Of a stretch of DNA of 64,000 bases, positions 1-63,867 are shown in pieces. Source of the DNA: Nemertoderma westbladi (Eukaryota > Animalia > Xenacoelomorpha). A model generated the notes under the pieces. The model did not search any database. It was given only the letters and a program-made list of their open reading frames with translations, and had not been told where the DNA came from. How positions within the stretch are numbered: position 1 is the stretch's first letter; each line of letters begins with the position of its first letter. Location: contig JAUCBJ010008813.1 of assembly GCA_032718475.1 (NCBI GenBank), positions 62,001-126,000 of the forward strand, in the 5' to 3' direction. Both the position numbers and the translations under genes were made by a program.

Positions 1-424
1 GAGTGGAAGGGTTTACTGTGGAAGATCACCCATGGTGGTGAACAGGCATTCCTTTAGGAAACACAGTGGAAGGGTTTACTGTGGAAGATCACCCATGGTG
101 GTTAACATTCCTTTAGGAAACAGAGTTGAAGGGTTTACTGTGGAAGATCACCCATGGTGGTTAACAGGCATTCCTTTAGGAAACAGAGTTGAAGGGTTTA
201 CTGTGGAAGATCACCCATGGTGGTGAACAGGCATTCCTTTAGGAAACACAGTGGAAGGGTTTACTGTGGAAGATCACCCATGGTGGTTAACATTCCTTTA
301 GGAAACAGAGTTGAAGGGTTTAATGTGGAAGATCACCCATGGTGGTTAACAGGCATTCCTTTAGGAAACAGAGTGGAAGGGTTTACTGTGGAAGATCACC
401 CATGGCGGTAAACAGGGATTCCTT
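1..424. repeat. Intronic minisatellite, ~59-63 bp unit, about 7 copies, running off the window start
   Basis: The unit AACAGGCATTCCTTTAGGAAACAGAGTTGAAGGGTTTACTGTGGAAGATCACCCATGGTGGTT recurs with small indels. ORFs 32..226 and 217..411 are its translations. Confidence 0.95.
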
Positions 425-532: not shown

Positions 533-777
533 CGATTACTTTCGGCGACCAAGAGATCCCTGACTACGATATGGACAGTGACGACGAATCTTGGGTCCGA
601 GCTCGGTGCATCGAGGGCCCTGATCCCCGGCTAAAGTTCGAGTTAATGATGGACCGACTCGAGAAGGGAAGCGGACAGACCGTGGTCTCCCTCAATGAGG
701 CCAAGGCCTTGCTGAAACAGGACGATGACCTGGTAACGGCTGTTTACGACTACTGGTTAAACAAACGCCTACATTAC
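533..777 (+). CDS. EPC1: Enhancer of polycomb homolog exon (EPcA/EPL1 domain)
   Basis: Encodes EIPDYDMDSDDE...FELMMDRLEKGSGQTVVSLNEAKALLKQDDDLVTAVYDYWLNKR, closely matching EPC1/E(Pc). Acceptor TTTAG ends at 532, donor GTTAGT at 778. Confidence 0.95.
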
Positions 778-1116: not shown

Positions 1117-1292
1117 CAACACGCCCTGATTCCGTCGGTTAGGCAGGAACGACAGGCGTCTACTGTGACTCCGGACCCTTACATCGCGTTCCGTCGGCGA
1201 ACCGAACGGATGCAGACACGGAAGAATCGGAAAAACGACGAGGTTTCTTACGAGAGAATGATTCGGTTGAGACGGGATCTCGAGAGATCGTT
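1117..1292 (+). CDS. EPC1: Enhancer of polycomb homolog exon
   Basis: Encodes QHALIPSVRQERQASTVTPDPYIAFRRRTERMQTRKNRKNDEVSYERMIRLRRDLERS, containing the hallmark EPC DPYxAFRRRTEKMQTRKNRKNDE motif. CCTTAG acceptor, GTAAGT donor at 1293 (phase 2). Confidence 0.96.
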
Positions 1293-4200
1293 GTAAGTTT
1301 ATCTGTAGAGAGACTTAGAGAGATCGTTGTAAGTTTATCTGTAGAGAGACTTAGAGAGATCGTTGTAAGTTTATCTGTAGAGAGACTTAGAGAGATCGTT
1401 GTAAGTTTATCTGTAGAGACTTAGAGATATCGTTGTAAGTTTATCTGTAGAGAGACTTAGAGAGATCGTTGTAAGTTTATCTGTAGAGACTTAGAGAGAT
1501 CGTTGTAAGTTTATCTGTAGAGAGACTTAGATAGATCGTTGTAAGTTTATCTGTAGAGACTTAGATAGATCGTTGTAAGTTTATCTGTAGAGAGACTTAG
1601 AGAGATCGTTGTAAGATTATCTGTAGAGAGACTTAGAGAGATCGTTGTAAGTTTATCTGTAGAGAGACTTAGAGAGATCGTTGTAAGTTTATCTGTAGAG
1701 AGACTTAGAGAGATCGTTGTAAGTTTATCTGTAGAGAGACTTAGAGAGATCGTTGTAAGTTTATCTGTAGAGAGACTTAGAGAGATCGTTGTAAGTTTAT
1801 CTGTAGAGACTTAGAGAGATCGTTGTAAGTTTATCTGTAGAGAGACTTAGAGAGATCGTTGTAAGTTTATCTGTAGAGAGACTTAGAGAGATCGTTGTAA
1901 GTTTATCTGTAGAGACTTAGAGAGATCGTTGTAAGTTTATCTGTAGAGAGACTTAGATAGATCGTTGTAAGTTTATCTGTAGAGACTTAGATAGATCGTT
2001 GTAAGTTTATCTGTAGAGAGACTTAGAGAGATCGTTGTAAGTTTATCTGTAGAGAGACTTAGAGAGATCGTTGTAAGTTTATCTGTAGAGACTTAGAGAG
2101 ATCGTTGTAAGTTTATCTGTAGAGAGACTTAGAGAGATCGTTGTAAGTTTATCTGTAGAGAGACTTAGAGAGATCGTTGTAAGTTTATCTGTAGAGACTT
2201 AGAGAGATCGTTGTAAGTTTATCTGTAGAGAGACTTAGAGAGATCGTTGTAAGTTTATCTGTAGAGACTTAGAGAGATCGTTGTAAGTTTATCTGTAGAG
2301 AGACTTAGAGAGATCGTTGTAAGTTTATCTGTAGAGAGACTTAGAGAGATCGTTGTAAGTTTATCTGTAGAGACTTTGAGAGATCGTTGTAAGTTTATCT
2401 GTAGAGAGACTTAGATAGATCGTTGTAAGTTTATCTGTAGAGACTTAGAGAGATCGTTGTAAGTTTATCTGTAGAGACTTAGAGAGATCGTTGTAAGTTT
2501 ATCTGTAGAGAGACTTAGAGAGATCGTTGTAAGTTTATCTGTAGAGACTTAGAGAGATCGTTGTAAGTTTATCTGTAGAGAGACTTAGAGAGATCGTTGT
2601 AAGTTTATCTGTAGAGACTTAGAGAGATCGTTGTAAGTTTATCTGTAGAGAGACTTAGAGAGATCGTTGTAAGTTTATCTGTAGAGAGACTTAGAGAGAT
2701 CGTTGTAAGTTTATCTGTAGAGAGACTTAGAGAGATCGTTGTAAGTTTATCTGTAGAGACTTAGAGAGATCGTTGTAAGTTTATCTGTAGAGAGACTTAG
2801 AGAGATCGTTGTAAGTTTATCTGTAGAGAGACTTAGAGAGATCGTTGTAAGTTTATCTGTAGAGAGACTTAGAGAGATCGTTGTCAGTTTATCTGTAGAG
2901 ACTTAGAGAGATCGTTGTAAGTTTATCTGTAGAGAGACTTAGAGAGATCGTTGTAAGTTTATCTGTAGAGAGACTTAGATAGATCGTTGTAAGTTTATCT
3001 GTAGAGACTTAGAGAGGTCGTTGTAAGTTTATCTGTAGAGAGACTTAGAGAGATCGTTGTAAGTTTATCTGTAGAGAGACTTAGAGAGATCGTTGTAAGT
3101 TTATCTGTAGAGAGACTTAGAGAGATCGTTGTAAGTTTATCTGTAGAGAGACTTAGAGAGATCGTTGTAAGTTTATCTGTAGAGAGACTTAGAGAGATCG
3201 TTGTAAGTTTATCTGTAGAGGCTTAGAGAGATCGTTGTAAGTTTATCTGTAGAGAGACTTAGAGAGATCGTTGTAAGTTTATCTGTAGAGAGACTTAGAG
3301 AGATCGTTGTCAGTTTATCTGTAGAGAGACTTAGAGAGATCGTTGTAAGTTTATCTGTAGAGAGACTTAGAGAGATCGTTGTAAGTTTATCTGTAGAGAG
3401 ACTTAGAGAGATCGTTGTAAGTTTATCTGTAGAGACTTAGAGAGATCGTTGTCAGTTTATCTGTAGAGAGACTTAGAGAGATCGTTGTAAGTTTATCTGT
3501 AGAGACTTAGAGAGATCGTTGTCAGTTTATCTGTAGAGAGACTTAGAGAGATCGTTGTAAGTTTATCTGTAGAGAGACTTAGAGAGATCGTTGTAAGTTT
3601 ATCTGTAGAGACTTAGAGAGATCGTTGTCAGTTTATCTGTAGAGAGACTTAGAGAGATCGTTGTAAGTTTATCTGTAGAGACTTAGAGAGATCGTTGTCA
3701 GTTTATCTGTAGAGAGACTTAGAGAGATCGTTGTCAGTTTATCTGTAGAGAGACTTAGAGAGATCGTTGTAAGTTTATCTGTAGAGAGACTTAGAGAGAT
3801 CGTTGTAAGTTTATCTGTAGAGAGACTTAGATAGATCGTTGTAAGTTTATCTGTAGAGACTTAGAGAGGTCGTTGTAAGTTTATCTGTAGAGAGACTTAG
3901 AGAGATCGTTGTAAGTTTATCTGTAGAGAGACTTAGAGAGATCGTTGTAAGTTTATCTGTAGAGAGACTTAGAGAGATCGTTGTAAGTTTATCTGTAGAG
4001 AGACTTAGAGAGATCGTTGTAAGTTTATCTGTAGAGAGACTTAGAGAGATCGTTGTAAGTTTATCTGTAGAGACTTAGAGAGATCGTTGTAAGTTTATCT
4101 GTAGAGAGACTTAGAGAGATCGTTGTAAGTTTATCTGTAGAGAGACTTAGAGAGATCGTTGTAAGTTTATCTGTAGAGACTTAGAGAGATCGTTGTCAGT

Positions 4201-5550
4201 TTATCTGTAGAGAGACTTAGAGAGATCGTTGTAAGTTTATCTGTAGAGAGACTTAGAGAGATCGTTGTAAGTTTATCTGTAGAGAGACTTAGAGAGATCG
4301 TTGTAAGTTTATCTGTAGAGACTTAGAGAGATCGTTGTCAGTTTATCTGTAGAGAGACTTAGAGAGATCGTTGTAAGTTTATCTGTAGAGAGACTTAGAG
4401 AGATCGTTGTAAGTTTATCTGTAGAGAGACTTAGAGAGATCGTTGTAAGTTTATCTGTAGAGAGACTTAGAGAGATCGTTGTAAGTTTATCTGTAGAGAG
4501 ACTTAGAGAGATCGTTGTAAGTTTATCTGTAGAGAGACTTAGAGAGATCGTTGTAAGTTTATCTGTAGAGACTTAGAGAGATCGTTGTAAGTTTATCTGT
4601 AGAGAGACTTAGAGAGATCGTTGTAAGTTTATCTGTAGAGAGACTTAGAGAGATCGTTGTAAGTTTATCTGTAGAGAGACTTAGAGAGATCGTTGTAAGT
4701 TTATCTGTAGAGACTTAGAGAGATCGTTGTAAGTTTATCTGTAGTGAGACTTAGAGAGATCGTTGTAAGTTTATCTGTAGAGAGACTTAGATAGATCGTT
4801 GTAAGTTTATCTGTAGAGACTTAGAGAGATCGTTGTAAGTTTATCTGTAGAGAGACTTAGAGAGATCGTTGTAAGTTTATCTGTAGAGAGACTTAGAGAG
4901 ATCGTTGTAAGTTTATCTGTAGAGACTTAGAGAGATCGTTGTAAGTTTATCTGTAGAGACTTAGAGAGATCGTTGTAAGTTTATCTGTAGAGAGACTTAG
5001 AGAGATCGTTGTAAGTTTATCTGTAGAGAGACTTAGAGAGATCGTTGTCAGTTTATCTGTAGAGAGACTTAGAGAGATCGTTGTAAGTTTATCTGTAGAG
5101 AGACTTAGAGAGATCGTTGTAAGTTTATCTGTAGAGAGACTTAGAGAGATCGTTGTAAGTTTATCTGTAGAGACTTAGAGAGATCGTTGTAAGTTTATCT
5201 GTAGAGAGACTTAGAGAGATCGTTGTAAGTTTATCTGTAGAGAGACTTAGAGAGATCGTTGTAAGTTTATCTGTAGAGAGACTTAGAGAGATCGTTGTAA
5301 GTTTATCTGTAGAGACTTAGAGAGATCGTTGTAAGTTTATCTGTAGAGAGACTTAGAGAGATCGTTGTAAGTTTATCTGTAGAGAGACTTAGATAGATCG
5401 TTGTAAGTTTATCTGTAGAGACTTAGAGAGATCGTTGTAAGTTTATCTGTAGAGAGACTTAGAGAGATCGTTGTAAGTTTATCTGTAGAGAGACTTAGAG
5501 AGATCGTTGTAAGTTTATCTGTAGAGAGACTTAGAGAGATCGTTGTAAGA
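1282..5550 (+). repeat. Splice-donor-containing minisatellite, 34/36-bp unit, about 120 copies, filling an EPC intron
   Basis: Unit GAGAGATCGTT|GTAAGTTTATCTGTAGAG(AG)ACTTA. The first copy is the real exon end and donor. Confidence 0.98.
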
Positions 5551-5618
5551 TTATACGTTCTGTTATGTTAATGTTAAACCGTTCTAAATTTGGTTACCAT
5601 GGTATTTTGTTTATTTAG

Positions 5619-5829
5619 GGACCTTCTGAATTTAGTTCGTAAACGGGAGAAACAAAAAAAGGAGTTGGTACGTTTGTCTATAGAACTGTATGAGAAGCAG
5701 TACCAGATGGGAGACTATACCTCGACAGTCTACAATGACCTCGTCAAGGTTTTGAGACACGAGAAACCCTCGTACACAGTGCCAGTAGTGCCCAAATACA
5801 GACGGCAGGGGGAGCAGACCCACCCAAGG
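5619..5829 (+). CDS. EPC1: Enhancer of polycomb homolog exon
   Basis: TT+G = Leu in phase with the previous exon. Encodes DLLNLVRKREKQKKELVRLSIELYEKQYQMGDY...KPSYTVPVVP, matching EPC (KRREKSKRELL...RYNLGDY...KPTYAIPIIP). Donor GTAAGT at 5830. Confidence 0.93.
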
Positions 5830-6410
5830 GTAAGTAAGAAACCCTCGTACACAGTGCCAGTAGTGCCCAAGTACAGACGGACGGCAGGGGGAGCAGACCC
5901 ACCCAAGGGTAAGTAAGAAACCCTCGTACACAGTGCCAGTAGTGCCCAAGTACAGACGGACGGCAGGGGGAGCAGACCCACCCAAGGGTAAGTAAGAAAC
6001 CCTCGTACACAGTGCCAGTAGTACCCAAGTACAGACGGACGGCAGGGGGAGCAGACCCACCCAAGGGTAAGTAAGAAACCCTCGTACACAGTGCCAGTAG
6101 TGCCCAAGTACAGACAGACGGCAGGGGGAGCAGACCCACCCAAGGGTAAGTAAGAAACCCTCGTACACAGTGCCAGTAGTACCCAAGTACAGACGGACGG
6201 CAGGGAGAGCAGACCCACCCAAGGGTAAGTAAGAAACCCTCGTACACAGTGCCAGTAGTACCCAAGTACAGACGGACGGCAGGGAGAGCAGACCCACCCA
6301 AGGTAAGTAAGAAACCCTCGTACACAGTGCCAGTAGTACCCAAGTACAGACGGACGGCAGGGGGAGCAGACCCACCCAAGGTAAGTAAGAAACCCTCGTA
6401 CACAGTGCCG
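5762..6410 (+). repeat. Exon-end plus donor tandem repeat, 75-79 bp unit, about 8 copies plus a partial copy
   Basis: Unit is the last 68 nt of the exon plus GTAAGTA. Intronic copies carry a 4-nt insertion relative to the exon copy. Confidence 0.97.
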
Positions 6411-6422
6411 TTATTGTTCCAG

Positions 6423-6701
6423 GACGACTACCGTAAGCGCCGCCGTTACGAACGTTCCCGCGGTGGTTCTATCGCCAAACTGAAGTCCTACCGTTCGGTG
6501 TACCCTCCCCACCCGGGTAGCCAACCCCCCTACCGTGGCAACCCCACCCACCATCCACCCGCGCACTACCCCCCCTCCGCCCAGACGTCCCAGCACCCAC
6601 CCAGACTGCGGGTGGACTCCTCCAGGGTCTACGAGTTGGGGGAGACAGAGCGACGGGCCGTCGAGACATCGACAGTTCCTGCACAGTCGCCGGCCCAAAA
6701 G
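6423..6701 (+). CDS. EPC1: Enhancer of polycomb homolog exon (basic then Pro/His-rich region)
   Basis: TTGTTCCAG acceptor. Encodes DDYRKRRRYERSR (compare EPC RPKRKYEKK), 93 open codons, AAG|GTTAGA donor. Phases fit both neighbours. Confidence 0.8.
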
Positions 6702-7124
6702 GTTAGATAAAGTAAACCAACGGAATTTATTATATGTTATTCTTTAAGAAATATGTGAAACGCTTGCACTTAATTTAAAGAAGTAATTTAATTGGAAAGT
6801 TTGAGATTACAGTAACTTAAATTAAATTTAATTAATTAATTAATGCAATTAAATCCTATATTCTCCTTCTTCTATAATACAATTGCCAATGATATATGTT
6901 TGTTTGACACAGCCGTATCTACACCTAAACGCTCCGGTGGTTTGCTACAAGACTTTGTATGGTGATTTACATGTGTATTGGCCATGGAATAGGAAAGTTA
7001 CGCATTAATTAATTAATTAATTCTCGAGATAATTAAGAAATTGATTGGAATTGAATTGAAAATTGAAATGTTTTCATTATATGGAATTTTTCTATCAGTA
7101 AACCAACCAGTAATCAATAGCAAG

Positions 7125-8163
7125 GCATTGATTACAGGCAGAAAGCCGGTCTTCCCAGGATGCCTTGTATAAGGCGAAGCAGGACTCCGCCTTTCTTGGT
7201 GTTCCCGCTGAACGGCGCACGGCGGTTGAGAGAACGGTGTCCCACAAGACGGGTGGGTGGCTGTCAGCGCAGCCCTCCGTTGTGGATCACAGTGATCACA
7301 ACGATCTGGACCCGGAGGTGTTCCGCGATAACCTCAATCTGAGGTATGGACTGACACCACCGAGTCTACCAGCTAGCTGCGAGGGGTGTGGGGGGGCGTT
7401 TACGACCTCGCATGCCCTGAATTGCAAGTCTGGTGGGCTCATTATAAAGCGCCATGACGAGGTTCGCGAGGTATTCGGAGACCTCATTGCGACTGCCTTT
7501 GGGGGGTCGGTTGTCCAGCGGGAGGTCACGTTGGTAACTGTGACCCTGATAGACAGGGCCGCGAGGTGGGGGGAGTCAGGGCAGACCTCTTGGCGAGGGG
7601 AGTCGGGGCCGAACTGAGGGTGGCGTCTTTTGATATCGCGATCATTAACGCTGACGCCCCCTCATACGTTAATCGGACCCTAGACTCCGCCCTCCAACAG
7701 CGGGTCCGCGCAAAGAAGGGTCCACTACGGTGCGGTTTGCGAGGATCGCCGGATCTCCTTCACCCCCCTAGTCGGAACCACCGTCGGGGTGTGGTGCAAG
7801 GAGGCCGAGATCTTGATTCGCCACGTAGCGGAGACCTTAGTCGCACGGCGGGATGCAATGCGTCAACGCGGCCTTGCGTGCGTGTTGGGCGGGGTTCGGA
7901 GGCGCCTCCAATTCGCGCTACTCCGCTCCAACTCCCTCTGTCTGCGCGGTGGTCGAAGGCCGTGGAGGGGACTCGGGTTTGTAGACGGTGCCGGTCTGAG
8001 GGGGTCTGACCTCCCAGATCGTTACTGATCCCCCCCCCCCCCCCCCCCCCCACTCTTTAATTACTTCACATGTCTTCTGGTGGTGGGTCATCATTTACCT
8101 TTTTGATGCATTTTATAATATATTACTTTATGAGAATTTAGAAGCAAGTATTCCAGTCAAATT
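7125..8163 (+). mobile_element. 5'-truncated, frameshifted CRE/NeSL-type non-LTR retrotransposon (RLE domain)
   Basis: LRYG..P..CEGC..F...HALNCKSGG..KRHDEVR is a CCHC knuckle plus RHD motif, followed by RADL..RG...FD, a restriction-like endonuclease motif. It is split over three frames and flanked by the 15-bp direct repeat GTAATCAATAGCAAG (7110-7124 and 8164-8178). Confidence 0.85.
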
Positions 8164-8454
8164 GTAATCAATAGCAAGATAATATTAATATAACTTTATC
8201 TTACTACTTTTTCAGAAGTGTAAGATAAAGTGAATGTCACCAAAATCCCGCCACATATACTAATAACTTAGGAATTTAATCCAAAATTGCAATCCCGATC
8301 CCGGAAATCCCGAAAAGTCAGGTCCCGTTTGAACACTATGATATACCATCGAAAATAGAAATTTGAAAAACAAGTTTCTGGCCCCCACTAACAGCCTGCG
8401 GTAGATTTTTAACAAAATTTATCTAAAAACACTTATCCCGCACATTAGTTGGAG

Positions 8455-9483
8455 CCCCCATTCTGCTCCCATTCTGCCCCCATTCTGCTCCCATTCTGCC
8501 CCCATTATGTCCCCATTTTGCCCCCATTCTGCTCCCATTCTGCCCCCATTCTGCTCCCATTCTGCCCCCATTCTGCCCCATTATGTCCCCATTTTGCCCC
8601 CATTCTGCTCCCATTCTGCCCCCATTATGTCCCCATTTTGCCCCCATTCTGCCCCCATTCTGCTCCCATTCTGCCCCCATTCTGCTCCCATTTTGCCCCC
8701 ATTCTGCCCCCATTATGTCCCCATATTACCCCCATTCTGTTCCCATTCTGCCCCCATTCTGCTCCCATTCTGCCCCCATTCTGCTCCCATTCTGCCCCCA
8801 TTCTGCTCCCATTCTGCCCCCATTCTGCTCCCATTCTGCCCCCATTCTGCCCCCATTCTGCTCCAATTCTGCCCCCATTTTGCCCCATTCTGCTCCCATT
8901 CTGCCCCCATTATGTCCCCATTTTGCCCCCATTCTGCTCCCATTCTGCCCCCATTATGTCCCCATTTTGCCCCCATTCTGCCCCCATTCTGCTCCCATTC
9001 TGCCCCCATTCTGCTCCCATTTTGCCCCCATTCTGCCCCCATTCTGCCCCCATTATGTCCCCATTTTACCCCCATTCTGCTCCCATTCTGCTCCCATTCT
9101 GCCCCCATTCTGCCCCTGCCCCCATTCTGCCCCCATTATGCCCCCATTTTACCCCCATTCTGCTCCCATTCTGCCCCCATTCTGCTCCCATTCTGCCCCC
9201 ATTCTGCTCCCATTCTGCCCCCATTATGTCCCCATTTTGCCCCCATTCTGCTCCCATTCTGCCCCCATTATGTCCCCATTCTGCCCCCATTCTGCCCCCA
9301 TTCTGCCCCCATTATGCCCCCCTTATGTCCCCATTTTGCTCCCATTCTGCTCCCATTTTGCCCCCATTTTGCCCCCATTCTGCTCCCATTTTGCTCCCAT
9401 TCTGCCCCCATTCTGTTCCCATTCTGCTCCCATTTTGCCCCCATTATGTCCCCATTTTGCTCCCATTCTTCCCCCATTATGCT
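8455..9483. repeat. C-rich 11-bp minisatellite (CCATTCTGCCC, CCATTCTGCTC and CCATTATGTCC variants), about 93 units
   Basis: Direct reading. Stop-free in several frames, which gives the PFCPHSAPIL pseudo-ORFs. Confidence 0.95.
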
Positions 9484-9990
9484 CCCTTTTGGATTATGAT
9501 TACGATTATGCCGACCTAAAATTTTCATTATGGCGGTTTTCGTGGTCGAGGATTTCTTTTTCAAAATTAGTTGTGGAATATTTGGTGGAATCTAGGTCAG
9601 TCTGTCCGCGGGTCTGTTTTACATTTTACGGACAGACCGGATGACTGACAGACATCGGGAACTAAGAAATCTAGCCGTATTCTAGAAAGCTAACCCGTAT
9701 TCAGATCTGAAATCCTTTTTAAATTTACCAGCGGTATTTTGTTGAATATAATTTATTCAATAAATTTATTTATATTAATTACGAATTTATTTGAATATTT
9801 CTTAAGGTAAATTTGTTACCCAATTGTAATTTTATTATAATAATAAACGTTCAGAATCAATCTCGGATCTTCTCCCTTTTTAGGGAGAGTATGTTGGATT
9901 TATATTATAAATACTGGTTTCCGTCGTCAATTTATATTTTCGTTTGAAATTACGTATAGCTAGAAGTTAACAACGTTTTATGGTTTATAG

Positions 9991-10074
9991 CCTACTCCAG
10001 CGGCGGTTGCTGTGGATCTACAACCCGATGGACAGTTCACATTCCGAAGAATAGATGGCGCTTCATACTATGCA
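9991..10074 (+). CDS. EPC1: Enhancer of polycomb homolog exon (start of EPcB)
   Basis: Encodes PTPAAVAVDLQPDGQFTFRRIDGASYYA, matching EPC DPDGPFAFRRKAGCQYYA. TTTATAG acceptor, GTAAGT donor. Confidence 0.92.
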
Positions 10075-10155
10075 GTAAGTGTTACACCTTCGGGGGGGGG
10101 GGGGGGGGGGGGGGTAGAGGAAGGGTTGTATATAATTCATTATCATATCGTTTAG

Positions 10156-10334
10156 GCTTCTACAACAGACACAGTGCAATCAATGTATCCTCCACCCTAC
10201 CGCTTGATGGCGTTACACTCGCCTGGCGCTCACACCCCTGGCGACGGCGATAGTCCAATAGGAAGGGGGCGTCATCGTTGCCTTGGATACGGTCGTCGGA
10301 GATTGGCCAGAGGCGGTAGGGTGTCCCTTGATAG
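10156..10334 (+). CDS. EPC1: Enhancer of polycomb homolog exon (EPcB)
   Basis: Encodes RCLGYGRRRLARGGRVSLD, matching EPC RCIGFARRRVGRGGRVLLDR. TTTAG acceptor, AG|GTGGGT donor (phase 2). Confidence 0.92.
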
Positions 10335-10636
10335 GTGGGTGGACATTAACTTTAATTTAACCAATAATTATCTTATTAATTGTTGTTGTTACACTATTTT
10401 ACATTATCTCTTTTTTTAATCAGTTTAAAAACAATAAATTTATAATTTAATATTTAACGATTTTAATTTAGAGATTTTAAATGTCGGAAGATTATAATAC
10501 TCGAAATATTTCATCCGAAACTACATAGATGCACGATTTCACAGACTTTTATGAACGGGACTTGGTAACAAACTACACGAAAATCAATATTAGGCCCTTC
10601 AAATAGTTTCTACAGGGGCTTGGAATATAAGTTACT

Positions 10637-10843
10637 CTAATTATATTTAATATATATTTTCAATTCGCAAATTGTTAAAGCGTCGTCTCTATTACTGAAT
10701 AGCACAACATATCTACCGTGTGCCCCATCACAGTCAATGTTAGCGACGGCTACATCAGCTAATGGAGTTCCACAATGGACTTTATCATTGATTGTTCCCA
10801 AGGCATTCAGTAAACTCCGGCGATTCTCGGTCAATACGAATAT
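10637..10843 (-). CDS. PAN/F-type lectin gene, last coding exon
   Basis: Encodes IFVL...CG...IDCDGAHGRYVVL...LTICELKIY*, the typical F-type lectin C-terminal half (GRYV, LxxCEV). TTTTCAG acceptor. Confidence 0.9.
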   Translation of the reverse strand: MFVLTENRRSLLNALGTINDKVHCGTPLADVAVANIDCDGAHGRYVVLFSNRDDALTICELKIYIKYN

Positions 10844-10883
10844 CTGAAAAGTTAAAATAGTTTTATTGGTTACCACCACAGTC

Positions 10884-11235
10884 ACCCCTCTAGCGGGAGA
10901 CTCGAAAAATACTAATTATAATGTAAACATTAGACAGAGACTAGGTGTTTACCGGGTTTGGTTTCATTTCATCAAGATTAACTTGAGCTATTCGCTTTCA
11001 AACATTAGCTAACAGACATACATACAGGACAGACCGACCGACCGACCGACCGACCGACCGACCGACCGACCGACCGACCGACCGACCGACCGACCGACCG
11101 ACCGACCGACCGACCGACCGACCGACCGACCGACCGACCGACCGACCGACCGACCGACCGACCGACCGACCGACCGACCGACCGACCGACCGACCGACCG
11201 ACAGACAACTACTGAAACAGCGGTTCCCCTATGTT
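10884..11235. mobile_element. HINE/DINE-1-like non-autonomous element with expanded (GACC)n microsatellite
   Basis: GTTTGGTTTCATTTC...AAACATT...CAGACA motif shared with copies near 20170, 27240 and 62275. About 42 GACC units at 11034-11200. Confidence 0.55.
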
Positions 11236-11289
11236 AAGATCTTTTACTGTATTGATGCGGTAATAATAACATATTTATCTAAGTCGAAC

Positions 11290-11525
11290 CTTGGCTCCTG
11301 TAATTCTGTGTGAGCAGCAGTCCTTTCTGTTGTAAACGACAACATTGCTGATCGAGGTTACTATCTCAAGGTCCACCCAGAACCAGTGAGGTCCATTGTT
11401 TCCGGCTGTGTGTGAACAAGAGTTGCGGTTATACCGGCCACCTGTGTTACCATCCACCGCTCTAGAGGATAGTCCACCAGAATCTGTACTATCCTGTCCG
11501 GTTGGTTTAGCTATGGCGACATTAC
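11290..11525 (-). CDS. PAN/F-type lectin gene, F-type lectin domain exon
   Basis: Encodes NVAIAKPTGQDS...SRAVDGN...CSHT...WFWVDL...VVYNRKDCCSHR, with the intact fucose-binding H...RxDxxxxR motif. Splice sites are in phase. Confidence 0.93.
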
Positions 11526-11789
11526 CTACACAACATAATGGTAAACTCGAACTATAGCTTGCGATATTGATATTCTCAGAAAATAATAAATTTTGAGATT
11601 TTTGTTTTTTTTTAAACACCCGGAACTAATAACTCGATGAAATTGGAAGTATACTTCATAAAACATTACTTAACATAAGATAGTTCCAAATCCTCTTTGA
11701 CCGAATTGTTCCTATCGGAACTCCAGAACTGTTTTCAATCCCCCATAACTACCTACTCCCCGGGAGAAACTAACACTCATTTAGATACC

Positions 11790-11900
11790 ATTAGTGTGCC
11801 TTGGCTAGTTCCTTAGTTACTACCCAGGTCCCCATGCCGGGCTCGAAGCCACGACCTCGACGATAAATTTAATCCAACGGATTTAACCACGACGCCAAGA
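11790..11900 (-). mobile_element. tRNA-derived SINE-like head
   Basis: Minus strand reads TGGCGTCGTGGTTAA (box A-like) and GGCTTCGAGCCC (box B-like). No intact cloverleaf. Confidence 0.4.
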
Positions 11901-12048
11901 TGAACATGTTATGGGACATGGGACACATTTTCGAGTATTTTGTTTAGATATTGTTTTATGCTAAAATTTCACCTACAAGTTCTCCATGCTACATATTCTA
12001 TTAAGCTTTAATATTCAGGATACTGAATTTCTATAACATGGAACTTAC

Positions 12049-12118
12049 GCTTCTTGTTTTCAAGCAGGCAAGTTTCTTCAATATATTCCAAGTGGTAATT
12101 TGTGGTGTTTCTGACTCC
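12049..12118 (-). CDS. PAN/F-type lectin gene, linker exon
   Basis: 70-nt exon encoding GVRNTTNYHLEYIEETCLLENKK. AG acceptor and GTAAGT donor. Phase 0 in and phase 1 out fit both neighbours. Confidence 0.75.
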
Positions 12119-12251
12119 CTTACACAACCACTGAAACGTACATAAAATTACAGTTATAGTATGATGGTGTCAGACTGACTGTCATATTATAATCATAGAC
12201 AGTGGTATTATGGTCAGTTACACTTACTGGTACTGTAGTTGTCAGACTGAC

Positions 12252-12387
12252 GGTCATATAATCATAGGAATACGATGGTACGAGATCATCTGGACTCACA
12301 TCCTCCGCATATTTGTCGTTTAATTGGCAAGCGAATCCATCTGATTGCTTGTTGTTTCTAAAGTTGATTGATTTGCAATTACGATTC
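12252..12387 (-). CDS. PAN/F-type lectin gene, PAN/apple domain second half
   Basis: Encodes NRNCKSINFRNNKQSDGFACQLNDKYAE...YDYMT (PAN-type CxSxNF...CxLN). TTACAG acceptor, GTCAGT donor. Confidence 0.85.
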
Positions 12388-12882
12388 CTGTAATTTAATT
12401 GTGTAATCTTGTTTACATCATGGTGTAATGTAATGTAATACTTTATAGGATTACTATGCAGTATACATGTTGGTTTACTTACTTTATATCGCACCGGCCC
12501 ACATGCATTCACCTCAAACACAACGCCGCTACCACAATAGTAAAGGAAACTCTTTTTTAGTATTTAATATTATTATTTTGTATTTTATTTAAAAGTCAAG
12601 GAGAATAAACTATTGAGATTCTCAGAGGTGTTTATTAATAAGTTCTGCTCTGATTAACATCTCATTGTACAGTGTAGCCTATAGCGAACCATTAGGTGGT
12701 CTCTTACTCCACTATATTGGTACACTATGCACACCCAACAATGGCCTTATAGTATATTTGATACAAAACATTGAATAGAATTGAATTGAATTTCGTATTG
12801 AATCCGTATTCGATCCTCAACGCATAGCCTAGAATCCAATATCTTGGATTTCTGATATAAGTAAATTGTGCCATAATGTTTA

Positions 12883-15800
12883 AATAACTCACCCGGTACA
12901 CACACCAGCACATCTTAATAACTCACCTGGGTACACACACATACCAGCACATCTTAATAACTCACCCGGTACGGGTACACACACCAGCACACATCTGAAT
13001 AACTCACCTGGTACACATACCTGCACATCTTAATAACTCACCTGGTACACATAGCAGCACATCTTAATAACTCACCTGGGTACACACACACACCAGCACA
13101 TCTTAATAACTCACCTGGTACACATACCAGCCACATCTTAATAACTCACCTGGGTACACAACACACACATACCAGCAGATCTTAATAACTCACCTAGTAC
13201 ACATACCAGCACATCTCAATAACTCACCTGGTACACATAGCAGCACATCTTAATAACTCACCTGGGTACACACACATACCAGCACATCTTAATAACTCAC
13301 CTGGTATACATACCAGCCACATCTTAATAACTAACCTGGTACACATACCAGCCACATCTTAATAACTCACCTGGGTACACAACACACACATACCAGCAGA
13401 TCTTAATAACTCACCTGGGTACACAACACACACATACCAGCAGATCTTAATAACTCACCTGGTACACATACCAGCACATCTTAATAACTCACCTGGTACA
13501 CATACCAGCACATCTTAATAACTCACCTGGTACACATACCAGCACACATCTTAATAACTCACCTGGGTACACAACACACACATACCAGCAGATCTTAATA
13601 ACTCACCTGGTACACATACCAGCACACATCTTAATAACTCACCTGGTACACACACCAGCACACATCTTAATAACTCACCTGGTACACATACCAGCACACA
13701 TCTTAATAACTCACCTGGGTACACAACACACACATACCAGCAGATCTTAATAACTCACCTGGTACACATACCAGCACATCTTAATAACTCACCTGGGTAC
13801 ACACACATACCGGCACACATCTTAGTAACTCACCTGGTACACATACCAGCACATCTTAATAACTCACCTGGGTACACACACATACCGGCACACATCTTAG
13901 TAACTCACCTGGTACACATACCAGCACATCTTAATAACTCACCTGGGTACACATGCCAGCACACATCTGAATAACTCACCTGGTACACATACCAGCACAT
14001 CTTAATAACTCACCTGGGTACACACACATACCGCCACACATCTTAGTAACTCACCTGGTACACATACCAGCACATCTTAATAACTCACCTGGGTACACAC
14101 ACATACCGGCACACATCTTAGTAACTCACCTGGTACACATACCAGCACATCTTAAGAACTCGTACACACACATACCAGCACACATCTTAGTAACTCACCT
14201 GGTACACATACCAGCACATCTTAATAACTCACCTGGGTACCCACACACACATACCATCACATCTTAATAACTCACCTGGTACACATACCAGCACATCTTA
14301 ATAACTCACCTGGGTACACACACATACCAGCACACATCCTAGTAACTCACCTGGTACATATACCAGCACATCTTAATAATTCACCTGGGTACACATACAT
14401 ACCAGCACACATCTTAATAACTCACCTGGGTACACAACACACACATACCATCACAACTTAATAACTCACCTGGTACACATACCAGCACATCTTAATATCT
14501 CACCTGGGTACACACACATACCAGCACACATCTTAGTAACTCACCTGGTACATATACCAGCACATCTTAATAACTCACCTGGGTACACATACATACCAGC
14601 ACACATCTTAATAACTCACCTGGGTACACAACACACACATACCATCACAACTTAATAACTCACCTGGTACACATACCAGCACATCTTAAGAACTCACCTG
14701 GTACACATACCAGCACATCTTAATAACTCACCTGGTACACATACCAGCACATCTTAATAACCCACCTGGTACACATACCAGCACATCTTAATAACTCACC
14801 TGGTACACATACCAGCACATCTTAATAACTCACCTGGTACACATACCAGCCACATCTTAATAACTCACCTGGTACACATACCAGCACATCTTAATAACTC
14901 ACCTGGTACACATACCAGCACATCTTAATAACTCACCTGGTACACATACCAGCACATCTTAATAACTCACCTGGGTACACACACATACTAGCACACATCT
15001 TAACAACTCACCTGGTACACATACCAGCACATCTTAATAACTCACCCGGTACACATACCAGCACATCTTAATAACTCACCTGGTACACATATCAGCCACA
15101 TCTTAATAACTCACCTGGTACACATACCAGCACATCTTAATAACTCACCTGGTACACATACCAGCACTTCTTAATAACTCACCTGGTACACATACCAGCA
15201 CATCTTAATAACTCACCTGGTACACATACTAGCACACATCTTAACAACTCACCTGGTACACATACCAGCACATCTTAATAACTCACCTGGTACACATACA
15301 TACCAGCACACATCTTAGTAACTCACCTGGCTGGTACACATACTAGCACACATCTTAATAACTCACCTGGTACACATACTAGCACACATCTTAATAACTC
15401 ACCTGGTACACATACTAGCACACATCTTAATAACTCACCTGGTACACATACATACCAGCACACATCTTAGTAACTCACCTGGCTGGTACACATACTAGCA
15501 CACATCTTAATAACTCACCTGGTACACATACTAGCACACATCTTAGTAACTCACCTGGTACACATACCAGCACATCTTAATAACTCACCTGGTACACATA
15601 CATACCAGCACATCTTAATAACTCACCTGGTACACATACCAGCACATCTTAATAACTCACCTGGTACACATACCAGCCACATCTTAATAACTCACCTGGT
15701 ACACATACCAGCACATCTTAATAACTCACCTGGTACACATACCAGCACATCTTAATAACTCACATGGTACACATACCAGCCACATCTTAATAACTCACCT

Positions 15801-17502
15801 GGTACACATACCAGCACATCTTAATAACTCACCTGGTACACATACATACCAGCACATCTTAATAACTCACCTGGTACACATACATACCAGCACACATCTT
15901 AGTAACTCACCTGGCTGGTACACATACTAGCACACATCTTAATAACTCACCTGGTACACATACTAGCACACATCTTAGTAACTCACCTGGTACACATACC
16001 AGCACATCTTAATAACTCACCTGGTACACATACATACCAGCACATCTTAATAACTCACCTGGTACACATACCAGCACATCTTAATAACTCACCTGGTACA
16101 CATACCAGCACATCTTAATAACTCACCTGGTACACATACCAGCACATCTTAATAACTCACCTGGTACACATACCAGCACATCTTAATAACTCACCTGGTA
16201 CACATACCAGCACATCTTAATAACTCACCTGGGTACACACACATACTAGCACACATCTTAATAACTCACCTGGTACACATACTAGCACACATCTTAGTAA
16301 CTCACCTGGTACACATACCAGCACATCTTAATAACTCACCTGGTACACATACATACCAGCACATCTTAATAACTCACCTGGTACACATACCAGCACATCT
16401 TAATAACTCACCTGGTACACATACCAGCACATCTTAATAACTCACCTGGTACACATACCAGCACATCTTAATAACTCACCTGGTACACATACCAGCACAT
16501 CTTAATAACTCACCTGGTACACATACCAGCACATCTTAATAACTCACCTGGGTACACACACATACTAGCACACATCTTAATAACTCACCTGGTACACATA
16601 CTAGCACACATCTTAATAACTCACCTGGTACACATACTAGCACACATCTTAATAACTCACCTGGTACACATACATACCAGCACACATCTTAGTAACTCAC
16701 CTGGCTGGTACACATACTAGCACACATCTTAATAACTCACCTGGTACACATACTAGCACACATCTTAGTAACTCACCTGGTACACATACCAGCACATCTT
16801 AATAAATCACCTGGTACACATACATACCAGCACATCTTAATAACTCACCTGGTACACATACCAGCACATCTTAATAACTCACCTGGTACACATACCAGCA
16901 CATCTTAATAACTCACCTGGTACACATACCAGCACATCTTAATAACTCACCTGGTACACATACCAGCCACATCTTAATAACTCACCTGGTACACATACCA
17001 GCACATCTTAATAACTCACCTGGTACACATACCAGCACATCTTAATAACTCACCTGGTACACATACCAGCACATCTTAATAACTCACCTGGTACACATAC
17101 CAGCCACATCTTAATAACTCACCTGGTACACATACCAGCACATCTTAATAACTCACCTGGTACACATACCAGCACATCTTAATAACTCACCTGGTACACA
17201 TACCAGCACATCTTAATAACTCACCTGGGTACACACACATACTAGCACACATCTTAACAACTCACCTGGTACACATACCAGCACATCTTAATAACTCACC
17301 TGGTACACATACCAGCCACATCTTAATAACTCACCTGGTACACATACATACCAGCACATCTTAATAACTCACCTGGTACACATACCAGCCACATCTTAAT
17401 AACTCACCTGGTACACATACCAGCACATCTTAATAACTCACCTGGTACACATACATACCAGCACATCTTAATAACTCACCTGGTACACATACCAGCACAT
17501 CT
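12883..17502 (-). repeat. Splice-donor-containing minisatellite, ~34-bp unit, about 130 copies, filling a lectin gene intron
   Basis: Minus-strand unit AGATGTGCTGGTATGTGTACCAG|GTGAGTTATTA. The first copy is the real exon end and donor at 17479. Confidence 0.97.
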
Positions 17503-17601
17503 GATCCGAGAGATTGGCTTATTTTCAGTTGTTATTACATGTTCTACTAGCAGGTGATTCTGATAGGACTCGTATGTCAACTCCCTATGCCACTTCTTGT
17601 A
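17480..17601 (-). CDS. PAN/F-type lectin gene, PAN/apple domain first half
   Basis: Encodes YKKWHRELTYESYQNHLLVEHVITTENKPISRIRCAGMCT. AG|GTGAGT joins the exon at 12387 to give CAGMCTRNRNCKSINF. The 5' boundary and start codon are unresolved. Confidence 0.82.
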
Positions 17602-18523
17602 CTACAACAATATACGTAGTCTATTGAGTTGTAGAAGATTGAAGTCAGTATAATAGTTTGTAGAAGTTGAAAGTTCTCATCCATAATACAGTATAATAAC
17701 GAATATTCCTCACCATAAACTAACTAAGCATTTAGAATAATTGTATCCGCGTCCTAAAACCCAATTAAATAAATATTGTATTATTTGAAAAAAAAAAAGT
17801 TAGTATAACACGAAACTATGCAGTTCTATGTGAATTGTAGTTTTGTTAAGATTATAAGTAAACATTCAAAGATTACGTTTTGTAACTTTATACAGGTTTG
17901 GAATGCAGGTGTACTGAGCTAATTCAACTTTTAATACAACATAAATATTGTAACAGTAATTACCTCAAAGTAGTTTTATATACTTCAAAGTGTACCATCA
18001 AACAGAGTATAATTGTTTTTTCATTTGAATTTAAATTAGCGATTAATAAATTATATTACGAATAAATTGCAGCTGTTGCCTTCGATCATTATCAGTACCC
18101 TGTGGTTAGTTCTATTGGCGACACACAATTATTTCACAACCATAAATTATATTGGTGTAATATACTTTAGAGACACAAAAGTTTGAGATACTGCATTGCA
18201 TTTCATTTAGTCAATCCACTAACTCCAACTGGTTGAACTTATTAGAGCATTAAAGTCTATCTGAAGTCCTTTATATACAACTAATTATTATTCTAGAATC
18301 CACCACGAACTCGATTCGTTACTCTCTCAAACCGCCAGTGTATCACAAAGTCTTCCTTCACTTTCACAAACTGATTCTTTTGATTGGCTGTAAGTAAATC
18401 TATTACTATAATATTATTTTACCTTACAGATTGTTCATATATTAGGTCACGATATTTTGACTCATTCCTTCCCAATTTCATGTTTATCATAAAATTCCAG
18501 ACCCCCCACCCCCCTTCGGCGAT

Positions 18524-20340: not shown

Positions 20341-20589
20341 TATGACTTACCAGTGGAGTACGAGCCTAAGATTTTTTACTCAACATTACTGAATAATTTA
20401 GTAATTTTTTTATGTTTTCTCAATGTTCTTCAACCTGAATGTTGGCCTGCGGATTGTGAATTAATACCGGTGTGTAACTCGTTTCTTCTTCGCCTTTCTT
20501 ACTGTTGTTTACAGGGACTTTATATCAATCCGTCTTTATCTGTTTATATTAAATTATTAAATTATTTTATGTTTCAGTTCGTCTCTTAG

Positions 20590-21220
20590 TTTCTCCCCTC
20601 AAGAACCGACTAGCAGTAGGTATCTGCCCCCCCGAACCCCGTCGCCCCCTCTCCCGTCCCCCAACACCCCTCCGTCGGAGACCACCCGGGTCTGGCTGGT
20701 GGACCACGGCTATTCGGCGTCCCCGCGGACCCTCACAACGCCCCCTAGCGGGGACCCCAGAACAAACAACCCACAATCCACATCGCACACCAAGGCTTTC
20801 TCACAGCACCGCCATCAAATCGACAATCTATACGGAACACTGCCTCGCGTAAACCCTTCAATTCGTGACTCATCGTCGTCTAGGCGACCAACCTCAACCA
20901 ATCAGCGAGCGGCGTCGCCTAGCAACGAGGACCCCTTCCCGCGCATACAATCGCCCAAAGCGCATCTCGCTGTGAACGCGCTCCTCGCTACGCTCGTTAA
21001 CCAGCAACGGGAGCCCCCCGCATGGCTCGCCCCGTCCGCCGCGACGGAACCGGTTGGCGTCTCTGAGTCGCTAGCGCCCCCCAGCGGCGTCGGACAGGAG
21101 GATATGGTCGACTCGTTGCTATTGGAGACGGAATCAACCCCCGGGGGCGACTCCTTGTTGAAGCGGTCGCCCCAGCAACAGTTAATACTGGTAGCTAAGG
21201 GAGTGAACGGAGTAGTCTAG
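20590..21220 (+). CDS. EPC1: Enhancer of polycomb homolog, last coding exon
   Basis: TCTCTTAG acceptor. AG+T joins the exon ending at 10334 in frame. RYLPPRTPSP resembles EPC RHFRPRTPS, and KAFSQHRHQI resembles EPcC EQYQQHQQQL. Stop TAG ends at 21220 and AATAAA lies at 21351. Confidence 0.78.
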
Positions 21221-22253
21221 CTGAACGCGTACCAAGTCATATTGAATAATTAAAGGATTCCCTCTCAATAGTTAGTCTGGATTTACATTAAATTATTCGA
21301 AAAGGCCCAATTAAAGTCGAGTCGATTCTTTGTTACTCAACTTAATATTTAATAAAACATCGATAAATGCCGCAGGATGGCGTAACAAAACGAAACGATA
21401 ACTAAACGAAAGAAAAAATCTTCAAAGGTTTGAAAGTTTTTACTTTCTCAATATTTATTGTAAACAGACGAGACGGGGGGGGGGGGGGGTAAACAAATCC
21501 CATCTCGGCGAGTTATTATTTCGCCTCAATATTAGAGAAATTCAATTTAGAGAAAGGAGCAGGTTACAGTGACATGTTATTCTAACCAAAACAATAGATT
21601 GGATGCTATACACCACTACTGGCGTTAATGATAATTACGCTATACACCAGAGTGATAAACTTGGAGTAAAAATTCCTTAGAGTTAAAAAATTAAAAACTA
21701 ATTTAAAACGAAGGAAACTAACGAAAATTGGACAGATTGAAAAAAAAAATCTAAGGAAATTTCGAACTGGAAACAAAAAGAAACGAGATTGAAATTCGTT
21801 TGGTTTCGTTATGTCATCCCAACTTATTATTAAATTGTATAGTTGAATCCTAATAACCAATATATAATTTATTCAGCCGCCTTATTCCATAACAGTGTGT
21901 TTAGCATCTCCAGACAATGTCTCATATTCAATTTATTAGTTTAGGTTTTATTCTCATTTGGTTTATATTATATTAGCGTAAAGCTTTCGGTCTGTTCGTA
22001 ACCCATATTAACACATATCAATATATATTGATTTAGGCGGGAAATCCTTCTGTAATATTCAGCATATTGTGTGTATTATTTTAATGATTACACGGAGTAT
22101 TAAATACACGTTTATTACCGGTATTAGGATAGTGAGTGTGAATATTAGGTGTAGCATTATACGGGTGAATCGCGAAAGAACTTTTTTGTGGTTGCGGATA
22201 TTTCGAAGGTTATGGATTGGTATGTGACACTATGGGATTAAATCGAACATCAT

Positions 22254-25200: not shown

Positions 25201-26972
25201 ACCTTGTGTGTGGTTAGATCTAACACCTTTGTGTGCGGTTAGATCTAACACCTTTGAGTGCGGTTAGATCTAACACCTTTGAGTGCGGTTAGATCTAACA
25301 CCTTTGGGTGCGTTTAGATCTAACACCTTTGAGTGCGGTTAGATATAACACCTTTGAGTGCGGTTAGATCTAACACCTTTGGGTGCGGTTAGATCTAACA
25401 CCTTTGAGTGCGGTTAGATCTAACACCTTTGAGTGCGGTTAGATATAACACCTTTGAGTGCGGTTAGATCTAACACCTTTGTGTGCGGTTAGATCTAACA
25501 CCTTTGAGTGCGGTTAGATATAACACCTTGTGTGTGGTTAGATCTAACACCTTTGGGTGCGGTTAGATATAACACCTTGTGTGTGGTTAGATCTAACACC
25601 TTTGAGTGCGGTTAGATCTAACACCTTTGAGTGCGGTTGGATCTAACACCTTTGGGTGCGGTTAGATCTAACACCTTTGAGTGCGGTTAGATATAACACC
25701 TTTGAGTGCGGTTAGATCTAACACCTTTGGGTGCGGTTAGATCTAACACCTTTGAGTGCGGTTAGATCTAACACCTTTGAGTGCGGTTAGATATAACACC
25801 TTTGAGTGCGGTTAGATCTAACACCTTTGTGTGCGGTTAGATCTAACACCTTTGAGTGCGGTTAGATATAACACCTTGTGTGTGGTTAGATCTAACACCT
25901 TTGGGTGCGGTTAGATATAACACCTTGTGTGTGGTTAGATCTAACACCTTTGAGTGCGGTTAGATCTAACACCTTTGGGTGCGGTTAGATCTAACACCTT
26001 TGAGTGCGGTTAGATCTAACACCTTTGTGTGCGGTTAGATCTAACACCTTAGAGTGCGGTTAGATATAACACCTTTGAGTGCGGTTAGATCTAACACCTT
26101 TGAGTGCGGATAGATCTAACACCTTTGGGTGCGGTTAGATCTAACACCTTTGGGTGCGGTTAGATATAACACCTTGTGTGTGGTTAGATCTAACACCTTT
26201 GGGTGCGGTTAGATATAACACCTTGTGTGTGGTTAGATCTAACACCTTTGGGTGCGGTTAGATATAACACCTTGTGTGTGGTTAGATCTAACACCTTTGA
26301 GTGCGGTTAGATCTAACACCTTTGTGTGCGGTTAGATCTAACACCTTTGAGTGCGGTTAGATATAACACCTTTGAGTGCGGTTAGATATAACACCTTTTA
26401 GTGCGGTTAGATATAACACCTTGTGTGTGGTTAGATCTAACACCTTTGAGTGCGGTTAGATCTTACACCTTTGCGTGGTGTTAGATGTAACACCTTTGTG
26501 TGCGGTTAGATCTAACACCTTTGAGTGCGGTTAGATCTAACACCTTTGCGTGGTGTTAAATCTAACAACTTTGTGTGTGGTTAGATCTTACACCTTTGCG
26601 TGGTGTTAGATCTAACACCTTTGCGTGGTGTTAAATCTAACAACTTTGTGTGTGGTTAGATCTTACACCTTTGCGTGGTGTTAGATCTAACACCTTTGTG
26701 TGCGGTTAGATCTAACACCTTTGATTGCGGTTAGATCTAACACCTTTGCGTGGTGTTAAATCTTACAACTTTGTGTGTGGTTAGATCTTACACCTTTGCG
26801 TGATGTTAGATCTAACACCTTGTGTGTGGTTAGATCTAGATCTAACACCTTGTAGGCGGTTGGAATTTACACCTTGTGTGTGGTTAATAAATCTAGATCT
26901 CACACCTTTGAGTGCGGTTAGATCTAACACCTTGTGTGCGGTTAGATCTACCACTGTACGGTTAGATCTAAC
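22254..26972. repeat. 24/25-bp satellite with palindromic core GTTAGATCTAAC, about 190 units
   Basis: About 13 identical 24-mers (TGTGTGTGGTTGGAACTAACACCT), then GTTAGATCTAACACCTTTGRGTGCG 25-mers interspersed with 24-mers. The right end is degenerate. Confidence 0.97.
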
Positions 26973-40459: not shown

Positions 40460-40769
40460 GATTTAGTATAACGACATGATAGGATTTAATTATCAGAACC
40501 GCCATTCTTTAACTAGACGAAATTTGAAACCGAACACCAAGAAAATTCAAGTTCGAAGCAGATCGCTGTTGGTGCATTTCCAAAAGAACATAATAATAGA
40601 TGACATTCCTATTACCTATTAACACATTTATTCTATTTGGACCTAATCTAAAAGAGAATTGTTTTCTTAAACACCGGATGTAACATGTTAACTACCTATG
40701 CTACATTCGGAAGAAGAGTTCTAATTAACTCGCCTGAATCAAACGCTTTAGAAAGTTCACTTTTTGATC
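40460..40769. repeat. 310-bp direct repeat, copy 1
   Basis: Appears identical to 42513-42822 (GATTTAGTATAACG...CACTTTTTGATC). Confidence 0.95.
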
Positions 40770-40872
40770 CCCATCACGCTGCTGAAAACGCCATCGCGGT
40801 CAAACCACCTGTTAAGGAGGTCGGCATGCTGTGATTGGTCAATTTTTCCAGACTCCTTATCTCGAGATTCAT

Positions 40873-63859: not shown

Positions 63860-63867
63860 GTACTCAC

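What the first reader, a model, noticed from the sequence alone, without database searches (positions are those of the whole stretch)
1282..17502. Recurrent splice-donor arrays: introns built by tandem amplification of the gene's own exon end plus 5' splice site
Seen: three sequence-unrelated arrays (1282-5550, 5762-6410 and 12883-17502) lie in two genes on opposite strands. Each begins inside the coding exon, spans the exon-intron junction and is repeated downstream into the intron (about 120, 8 and 130 copies). Nearly all copies keep a consensus GTAAGT or GTGAGT donor. A two-copy version exists at 12170-12268. Using a distal donor would include a stop (TTG TAA; AGG TGA) or a frameshift, so only the most 5' donor gives the conserved protein. 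Inference: four events at the same landmark within 17 kb suggest a mechanism aimed at exon-intron junctions (for example polymerase pausing or R-loop-linked slippage, or rolling-circle reinsertion), or a function such as dense U1 snRNP loading or NMD-coupled dosage control. I do not know of a described system of this form, but cannot search the literature.
Basis: partly seen in the sequence, partly recalled or inferred. Interest (0 to 1): 0.88.

Follow-up and report, generated by a model that had tools for sequence, protein, structure and literature searches.

The report
Three splice-donor minisatellites in nested genes
In an invertebrate animal genome, three unrelated short pieces that cover the end of an exon and its splice signal have been copied head-to-tail (about 120, 8 and 127 times) into the following introns, yet the assembled transcripts use the first signal each time, so these are large, closely packed but likely harmless examples of a repeat type already described in human and lancelet genes.

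Summary
The three arrays are real. Each starts in an exon, crosses the 5' splice site and repeats it: 121, 8 and 127 donor positions. Two lie in an Enhancer-of-polycomb (EPC) gene, one in a lectin-like gene nested antisense in an EPC intron. Spliced contigs of run X3 use the first donor at all three; any later donor gives a stop. Arrays 1 and 3 enlarged normal introns (89 and 506 bases when collapsed) rather than building them. The lectin-like gene looks like a transcribed pseudogene. The form is described: human F7, CBS, 6-16, LMNB2 and PDGF minisatellites (PMC1557585) and lancelet 'mirages' (PMC3087553, PMC3902484). This scan already noted similar arrays in other genomes (8 notes). The extra donors are no better conserved than the rest of the unit. 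Still open: 3 of 11 arrays span a donor against 0.17 expected (P about 5e-4). The window was picked for this feature and no genome is held, so a bias towards junctions is untested.

The parts
533..777 (+). EPC (Enhancer of polycomb-like) exon; the gene starts upstream of the window
   Evidence: EPL1 PF10513 weak hit, below cut-off; 270 homologues, named ones almost all EPC; spliced 777>1117 GT..AG in X3
1117..1292 (+). EPC exon whose last 11 bases begin array 1; donor used at 1292|1293
   Evidence: X3 contig continues from 1293 into the exon at 5619
1282..5554 (+). Array 1: 36/34-base unit (11 exon + 25 intron bases), 121 donor positions; intron 1293-5618 is 4326 bases, 89 when collapsed
5619..5829 (+). 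EPC exon whose last 68 bases begin array 2; donor used at 5829|5830
   Evidence: open frame; X3 contig positions add up exactly
5762..6409 (+). Array 2: 75-79-base unit (68 exon + 7 intron bases), 8 donors and a 22-base partial copy; only 13 unique bases remain before the acceptor at 6422
6423..6701 (+). EPC exon
   Evidence: open frame; contig length accounting
9991..10334 (+). Two EPC exons (9991-10074, 10156-10334)
   Evidence: open frame; contig accounting; loose end at 18294 in X3 and X4
10476..12387 (-). Four downstream exons of the nested lectin-like gene (12387-12300, 12130-12049, 11525-11290, 10843 to about 10476); the first two are skipped in the X3 contig; the 10476 end is derived from contig length, not seen
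   Evidence: F5/8 type C domains PF22633 and PF00754 above cut-off on 11290-11523; loose end at 17478 matches 11494-11523
12883..17502 (-). Array 3: 34-44-base unit (23 exon + 11 intron bases), 127 donor positions; intron 17479-12388 is 5092 bases, 506 when collapsed
17480..17757 (-). First seen exon of the nested lectin-like gene; donor used at 17480|17479; the ATG frame stops after 35 codons and the cysteine-rich domain frame is a different one
   Evidence: X3 contig covers it with no differences from the window; translations
18297..18389 (+). EPC exon that closes the 7962-base intron holding the nested gene
   Evidence: spliced contigs in X3 and X4; frame open
20578..21222 (+). Last coding EPC exon
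   Evidence: loose end behind 18389 in X3; frame open to the stop

Best explanation
These are three independent 'mirage'-type minisatellites, each repeating an exon end plus its 5' splice site into the intron, likely born as small local duplications, enlarged stepwise by unequal exchange or slippage, and likely tolerated as neutral DNA because splicing uses the first donor. Shown: the anatomy, three unrelated units, first-donor use in assembled transcripts, stops on distal use, and a window in which about 20 of 64 kb is tandem repeat. Inferred: (1) a 34-75-base duplication happened to cover the junction and left the upstream copy intact; (2) copy number grew by repeated duplication of blocks of units; (3) exon definition and 5'-to-3' donor choice, as shown for human F7, keep the mRNA normal, and rare distal products would be removed by nonsense-mediated decay; (4) there is no selected function.
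For: First donor used at array 1 (X3 loose end at 1293 is the exon at 5619), at array 2 (the 1883-base contig places 18294 at record position 1730, exactly as predicted with the first donor) and at array 3. Blocks of 8-9 variant units recur within arrays 1 and 3, and array 3 diverges from the exon outwards (score loss 4.6, 7.1, 11.5 by thirds). Distinct substitutions in the donor 9-mer against the rest: 2/9 sites vs 5/27 (p = 1.0) and 12/9 vs 19/25 (p = 0.15). Collapsing 11 arrays shortens the window from 64,000 to 43,827 bases; 8 of the 11 do not span an annotated donor. Same form and outcome in F7, LMNB2, PDGF (PMC1557585) and lancelet globin, Adh3, troponin C, PGBD5 (PMC3087553, PMC3902484).
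Against: 3 of 11 arrays span a donor against 0.17 expected (P = 4.5e-4), none spans an annotated acceptor, and a further array (62938-63859) begins 8 bases after a predicted donor. Random placement explains this only through post hoc choice of the window. Contigs drop rare isoforms and decay would hide distal products, so low-level use is not excluded. First-donor evidence comes from one run (X3). Array 1 shows no divergence gradient.
Confidence: 0.7

Rival explanations
1. Minisatellite birth in this genome is biased towards the first bases of introns by a transcription- or splicing-linked process (polymerase pausing, R-loops or nicks near the 5' splice site repaired with short duplications); the arrays are still neutral.
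For: [quoted passage not shown]
Against: Window selected for the feature; a third of it is tandem repeat; the lack of acceptor-spanning arrays is expected from selection alone; the donor list (18) is my own annotation and may be incomplete, which would raise the expectation; no genome to test.
Confidence: 0.21
2. The arrays are functional: dense U1 snRNP landing pads or a ladder of decay-coupled donors that tunes EPC dosage.
For: Two arrays in successive introns of one chromatin-regulator gene; most copies keep a consensus donor; all distal donors give stops.
Against: Donor 9-mers are not protected from substitution (few events, weak power); no distal use in X3 contigs; array 3 lies in a probable pseudogene and reads antisense to EPC; stops on read-through into an intron are the default outcome.
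Confidence: 0.06
3. The arrays, or their lengths, are assembly artefacts.
For: No spanning long read was seen; the DNA runs may be the assembly's source; array 3 depth in X1 is only 9-14 times unique depth, below the about 46 expected for the commonest unit.
Against: Unit contigs at high depth in X1 and X2 (array 1 up to 96-fold in X1; array 3 core 1356 vs 37 in X2), contigs linking unique flanks to the arrays, and structured variant patterns.
Confidence: 0.03

Closest known systems
Lancelet 'mirage' minisatellites (Adh3, globins BflGb6/BflGb9, troponin C, PGBD5): PMC3087553 and PMC3902484 (passages read); the Adh3 and troponin C papers were seen only as cited there
   Same: [quoted passage not shown]
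   Different: Copy numbers here reach 121-127 against 2-7 in the globin and PGBD5 passages; all three here are donor-side; somatic and allelic length variation was not tested here.
Human F7 intron 7 37-base VNTR, with CBS IVS13, 6-16 intron 2, LMNB2 and PDGF intron 4 as listed in Borensztajn et al. 2006, PMC1557585 (abstract, Introduction passages, Discussion read)
   Same: First unit spans exon end and donor; identical pseudo-donors follow; only the most upstream donor is used in F7, LMNB2 and PDGF.
   Different: 5-26 copies there, up to about 127 here; one array per gene is listed there, three within 17 kb here; CBS and 6-16 use two pseudo-sites as well, which contigs here could not exclude at low level.
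Intron gain by tandem duplication across an AG/GT proto-splice site (Rogers model, as summarised in PMC3087553)
   Same: Duplicated exon sequence ends up inside an intron; array 2 makes up all but 20 of 593 intron bases.
   Different: The acceptors here lie in unique sequence, not in a repeat copy, and the next exons do not continue the unit; arrays 1 and 3 enlarged introns of ordinary size.

Membership tests
Mirage / donor-spanning minisatellite | Head-to-tail repeat whose first unit holds an exon end and the true 5' splice site | tested here: met
   junctions supported by spliced contigs
Mirage / donor-spanning minisatellite | Later units repeat the donor as pseudo-sites | tested here: met
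   109 of 121, 8 of 8 and 116 of 127 positions match the first donor or a full GTAAGT
Mirage / donor-spanning minisatellite | Main transcript spliced at the first donor | tested here: met
   X3 contigs for all three arrays; one run, contigs only
Mirage / donor-spanning minisatellite | Locus-specific unit, not a dispersed repeat family | tested here: met
Mirage / donor-spanning minisatellite | Length polymorphism between alleles or cells (VNTR) | tested here: inconclusive
   Depth ratios differ between X1 and X2 but contig depth is not a copy number; no long reads
Intron gain by tandem duplication (Rogers model) | Donor and acceptor both come from repeat copies; no older intron remains | tested here: not met
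   Acceptors are in unique tails; collapsed introns 89, 20 and 506 bases
Intron gain by tandem duplication (Rogers model) | Intron absent in orthologues | tested here: inconclusive
   Array 1: 1 of 22 homologous fragments (P0122) stops at the same column, 21 do not (11 of the 22 aligned); array 2: no homologue found; no DNA of these records seen
Decay-coupled regulatory donor ladder | Regulated use of distal donors and selection on their sequence | tested here: inconclusive
   No distal use in contigs, no donor conservation; no raw reads or decay-blocked data

The most novel reading that the evidence does not exclude
In this lineage new minisatellites are born preferentially at 5' splice sites of transcribed genes, through a transcription- or splicing-coupled duplication process, and this is a main route by which its short introns grow 30- to 50-fold; the spliceosome then picks one donor out of more than 120 identical ones over 4-5 kb.
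Probability: 0.2. Interest if true: 0.62.

Novelty: new member of a known kind. Interest (0 to 1): 0.25.

Why it matters
As it stands it adds three large cases to a known class and shows that first-donor choice, worked out on 5-9 copies in human F7, holds in an invertebrate against more than 120 copies. A genome-wide bias of array birth to donors would link splicing or transcription to local mutation and offer a mechanism that the lancelet papers call unclear. No genome-wide test turned up in 6 literature searches, which cover open-access papers and bioRxiv only.

Tried and rejected
No genome is held, so the genome-wide enrichment test could not be run. No RNA holder was listed by the run search; X3 and X4 are labelled 'DNA?' and I treat them as transcriptomes only because their contigs are spliced. 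X3 has no cover inside arrays 1 and 3; that is absence in contigs, not proof of non-use. The array at 1-424 as a fourth donor array: rejected, its unit lacks the upstream exon end seen as the loose end at 533 and it is a very abundant dispersed satellite. The repeat at 12170-12268 as an early two-copy stage: rejected. The 93-mer at 49372-50095 has 7 GTRAG words on the minus strand but lies behind a stop codon with no exon evidence: not counted. Homologue search with exon 5620-5829 found nothing, so the age of the array-2 intron is open. Pfam gave no hit for the cysteine-rich lectin exons taken singly; my 'PAN/apple-like' label is recalled. Earlier-findings look-ups by genome, relatives and enrichment words were empty. 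The original Adh3 mirage paper could not be read. PMC10078293 and PMC4039745 (passages read) did not address donor-spanning arrays. No supplements were read; those of PMC3087553 and PMC3902484 hold mirage alignments that may bear on the comparison.

Full report
Observation. Tandem Repeats Finder gives arrays at 1282-5554 (period 36, 120.6 copies), 5762-6409 (period 79, 8.3 copies) and 12883-17502 (period 34, 127 copies). The units are unrelated. Array 1 repeats 11 exon and 25 intron bases and has 121 donor positions (109 GTT|GTAAGT, 10 GTCAGT, 2 GTAAGA). Array 2 repeats 68 exon and 7 intron bases, with 8 of 8 GTAAGT. Array 3, on the minus strand, repeats 23 exon and 11 intron bases, with 116 of 127 CAG|GTGAGT. 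It holds no exon end and only one copy has GTAAGT, so there are three events.

Genes. The plus-strand gene is Enhancer of polycomb: exon 535-777 finds 270 homologues, the best at 65-77% identity, with named hits from molluscs, insects, annelids and a crinoid and no near-identical relative, plus a weak EPL1 Pfam hit. The organism is thus an animal, likely an invertebrate; I did not place it further. The minus-strand gene has an F5/8 type C domain above Pfam cut-offs and upstream cysteine-rich exons that look PAN/apple-like (recalled label; no Pfam hit). It is nested in EPC intron 10335-18296, so all three arrays lie inside one EPC transcription unit.

Which donor is used. The run search listed six runs, none on record as RNA. 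X3 behaves as a transcriptome: it covers exons only, joins 777 to 1117 across GT..AG, and continues from 1293 into the exon at 5619, so array 1 is spliced at its first donor. The same 1883-base contig places window 18294 at record position 1730, exactly the value predicted from the exon lengths with the first donor of array 2; a later donor would add about 79 bases. An 882-base X3 contig covers 17757-17478 and continues into the exon ending at 11525, so array 3 is also spliced at its first donor. This is one run, contigs drop rare isoforms, and decay would hide distal products. Distal use gives stops in array 1 (TTG TAA), in 7 of 7 cases in array 2 and in the domain frame of array 3 (AGG TGA).

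The nested gene. Its first ATG frame stops after 35 codons, the cysteine-rich frame is a different one, and X1, X2 and X3 show no difference from the window there. The X3 transcript also skips two exons (170 bases), which puts a stop right after the junction in that frame. It is probably a transcribed pseudogene; other isoforms are not excluded.

Real or artefact. DNA contigs in X1 and X2 run from unique sequence into arrays 1 and 3. Summed depth over array 1 in X1 is 2712-3306 against 34 beside it, a ratio of 79-96, where the assembly predicts 68-95 for words of the commonest unit. The array 3 core in X2 is 1356 against 37, a ratio of 36, where 46 is predicted. Against this, array 3 in X1 reaches only 9-14 times unique depth and array 1 in X2 at most 56. 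The arrays are very likely real; their exact lengths are unconfirmed.

Built or enlarged. With arrays collapsed, the three introns measure 89, 20 and 506 bases; other introns in the window run from 81 to about 3400. Arrays 1 and 3 keep ordinary unique 3' parts. Array 2 has replaced nearly the whole intron, leaving 13 unique bases before the acceptor, but the acceptor is not a repeat copy and the next exon does not continue the unit, so the Rogers model of intron gain does not fit as written. One of 22 homologous fragments (P0122) stops at the same column as read-through at array 1's donor, a hint that this intron position exists elsewhere; the other 21 do not (11 aligned). No homologue was found for the array-2 exon.

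Mechanism. Blocks of 8-9 variant units recur inside arrays 1 and 3, and array 3 diverges from the exon outwards (4.6, 7.1, 11.5 by thirds), while array 1 shows no such gradient. In array 2, a 4-base insertion is shared by copies 2-8 and a 1-base loss by the last two. This fits stepwise duplication better than one rolling-circle burst (inference). Distinct substitutions are not rarer in the donor 9-mer: 2 in 9 sites vs 5 in 27 (p = 1.0) and 12 in 9 vs 19 in 25 (p = 0.15). Power is low, but there is no sign of selection on the extra donors.

Chance. About 20 of the 64 kb are tandem repeat. Placing the founding unit of each of 11 arrays (the GACC microsatellite left out) at random in the collapsed window, not wholly inside an exon, gives 0.17 expected to span one of 18 annotated donors; 3 do (P = 4.5e-4; one donor of the 50-64 kb gene was misplaced by a few bases there). 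None spans an annotated acceptor, and one more array starts 8 bases after a predicted donor. The window was chosen for this feature, the donor list is mine and may be incomplete, and no genome is held. The excess is suggestive only.

What is known. PMC1557585 (abstract, Introduction passages and Discussion read) describes this exact form in human F7 intron 7 and lists 6-16, CBS, LMNB2 and PDGF. It shows that the pseudo-donors are functional but silent because the most upstream one is chosen. PMC3087553 (passages) and PMC3902484 (passages) describe lancelet 'mirages' in globins, Adh3, troponin C and PGBD5, report normal splicing and length instability, and call the generating mechanism unclear. 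I found F7 by my own search; the 'mirage' lead came from note e1-8074563 and I then read the papers. One search listed eight notes on similar arrays in other genomes; I did not check their data. Six searches found no genome-wide test of enrichment at donors, in open-access papers and bioRxiv only.

Verdict. A real feature and a new member of a known kind, unusual only in size and density. Best reading: neutral mirage minisatellites tolerated through first-donor choice (0.70); biased birth at donors 0.21; function 0.06; artefact 0.03. Interest 0.25.

Noticed in passing
window 17340-17453, run X4: X4 has spliced EPC contigs at depth about 9.5 but an array-3 core contig at depth 144, with no cover of the neighbouring unique intron or lectin exon. 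Background DNA or pre-mRNA multiplied by copy number, or a transcript through the array; unexplained.
   Followed up: partly
window 10476-17757 (-): Lectin-like gene nested antisense in an EPC intron; first exon frameshifted and two exons skipped in the X3 contig; probable transcribed pseudogene. Whether the 127-donor array promotes the skipping is untested.
   Followed up: partly
window 58975-60935 and 62938-63859: Two arrays of the same 20-base unit in one predicted 5.7-kb intron; the second begins 8 bases after the predicted donor at 63867 without containing it.
   Followed up: partly
window 1-424: 62-base satellite in an EPC intron with summed depth up to about 3 million in X1 against 34 for unique DNA: a very abundant dispersed repeat family.
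   Followed up: partly
window 6382-6422: After the last array-2 donor only 41 bases remain to the acceptor, 13 of them unique, so the branch point likely lies in repeat-derived, partly exon-derived sequence.
   Followed up: no
window 22238-26982: 4.7-kb array of a 25-base unit downstream of EPC, with two sub-domains of different unit variants; no link to an exon seen.
   Followed up: no
window 50279-64000 (-): Predicted multi-exon gene with a 3000-base exon and an open frame of about 1384 codons in the window; not identified.
   Followed up: partly
window 32945-34080 (-), 47205-48345 (+), 44475-45040 (+): Read by eye, labels recalled and not searched: an intronless RING/B-box (TRIM-like) frame, an intronless fibrinogen-domain frame, and a small two-exon gene for a secreted cysteine-rich peptide (translation).
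   Followed up: no
window 42506-42823 and about 40460-40770: A near-identical direct repeat of about 310 bases, 2 kb apart, seen by eye; it looks like part of a decayed retroelement.
   Followed up: no
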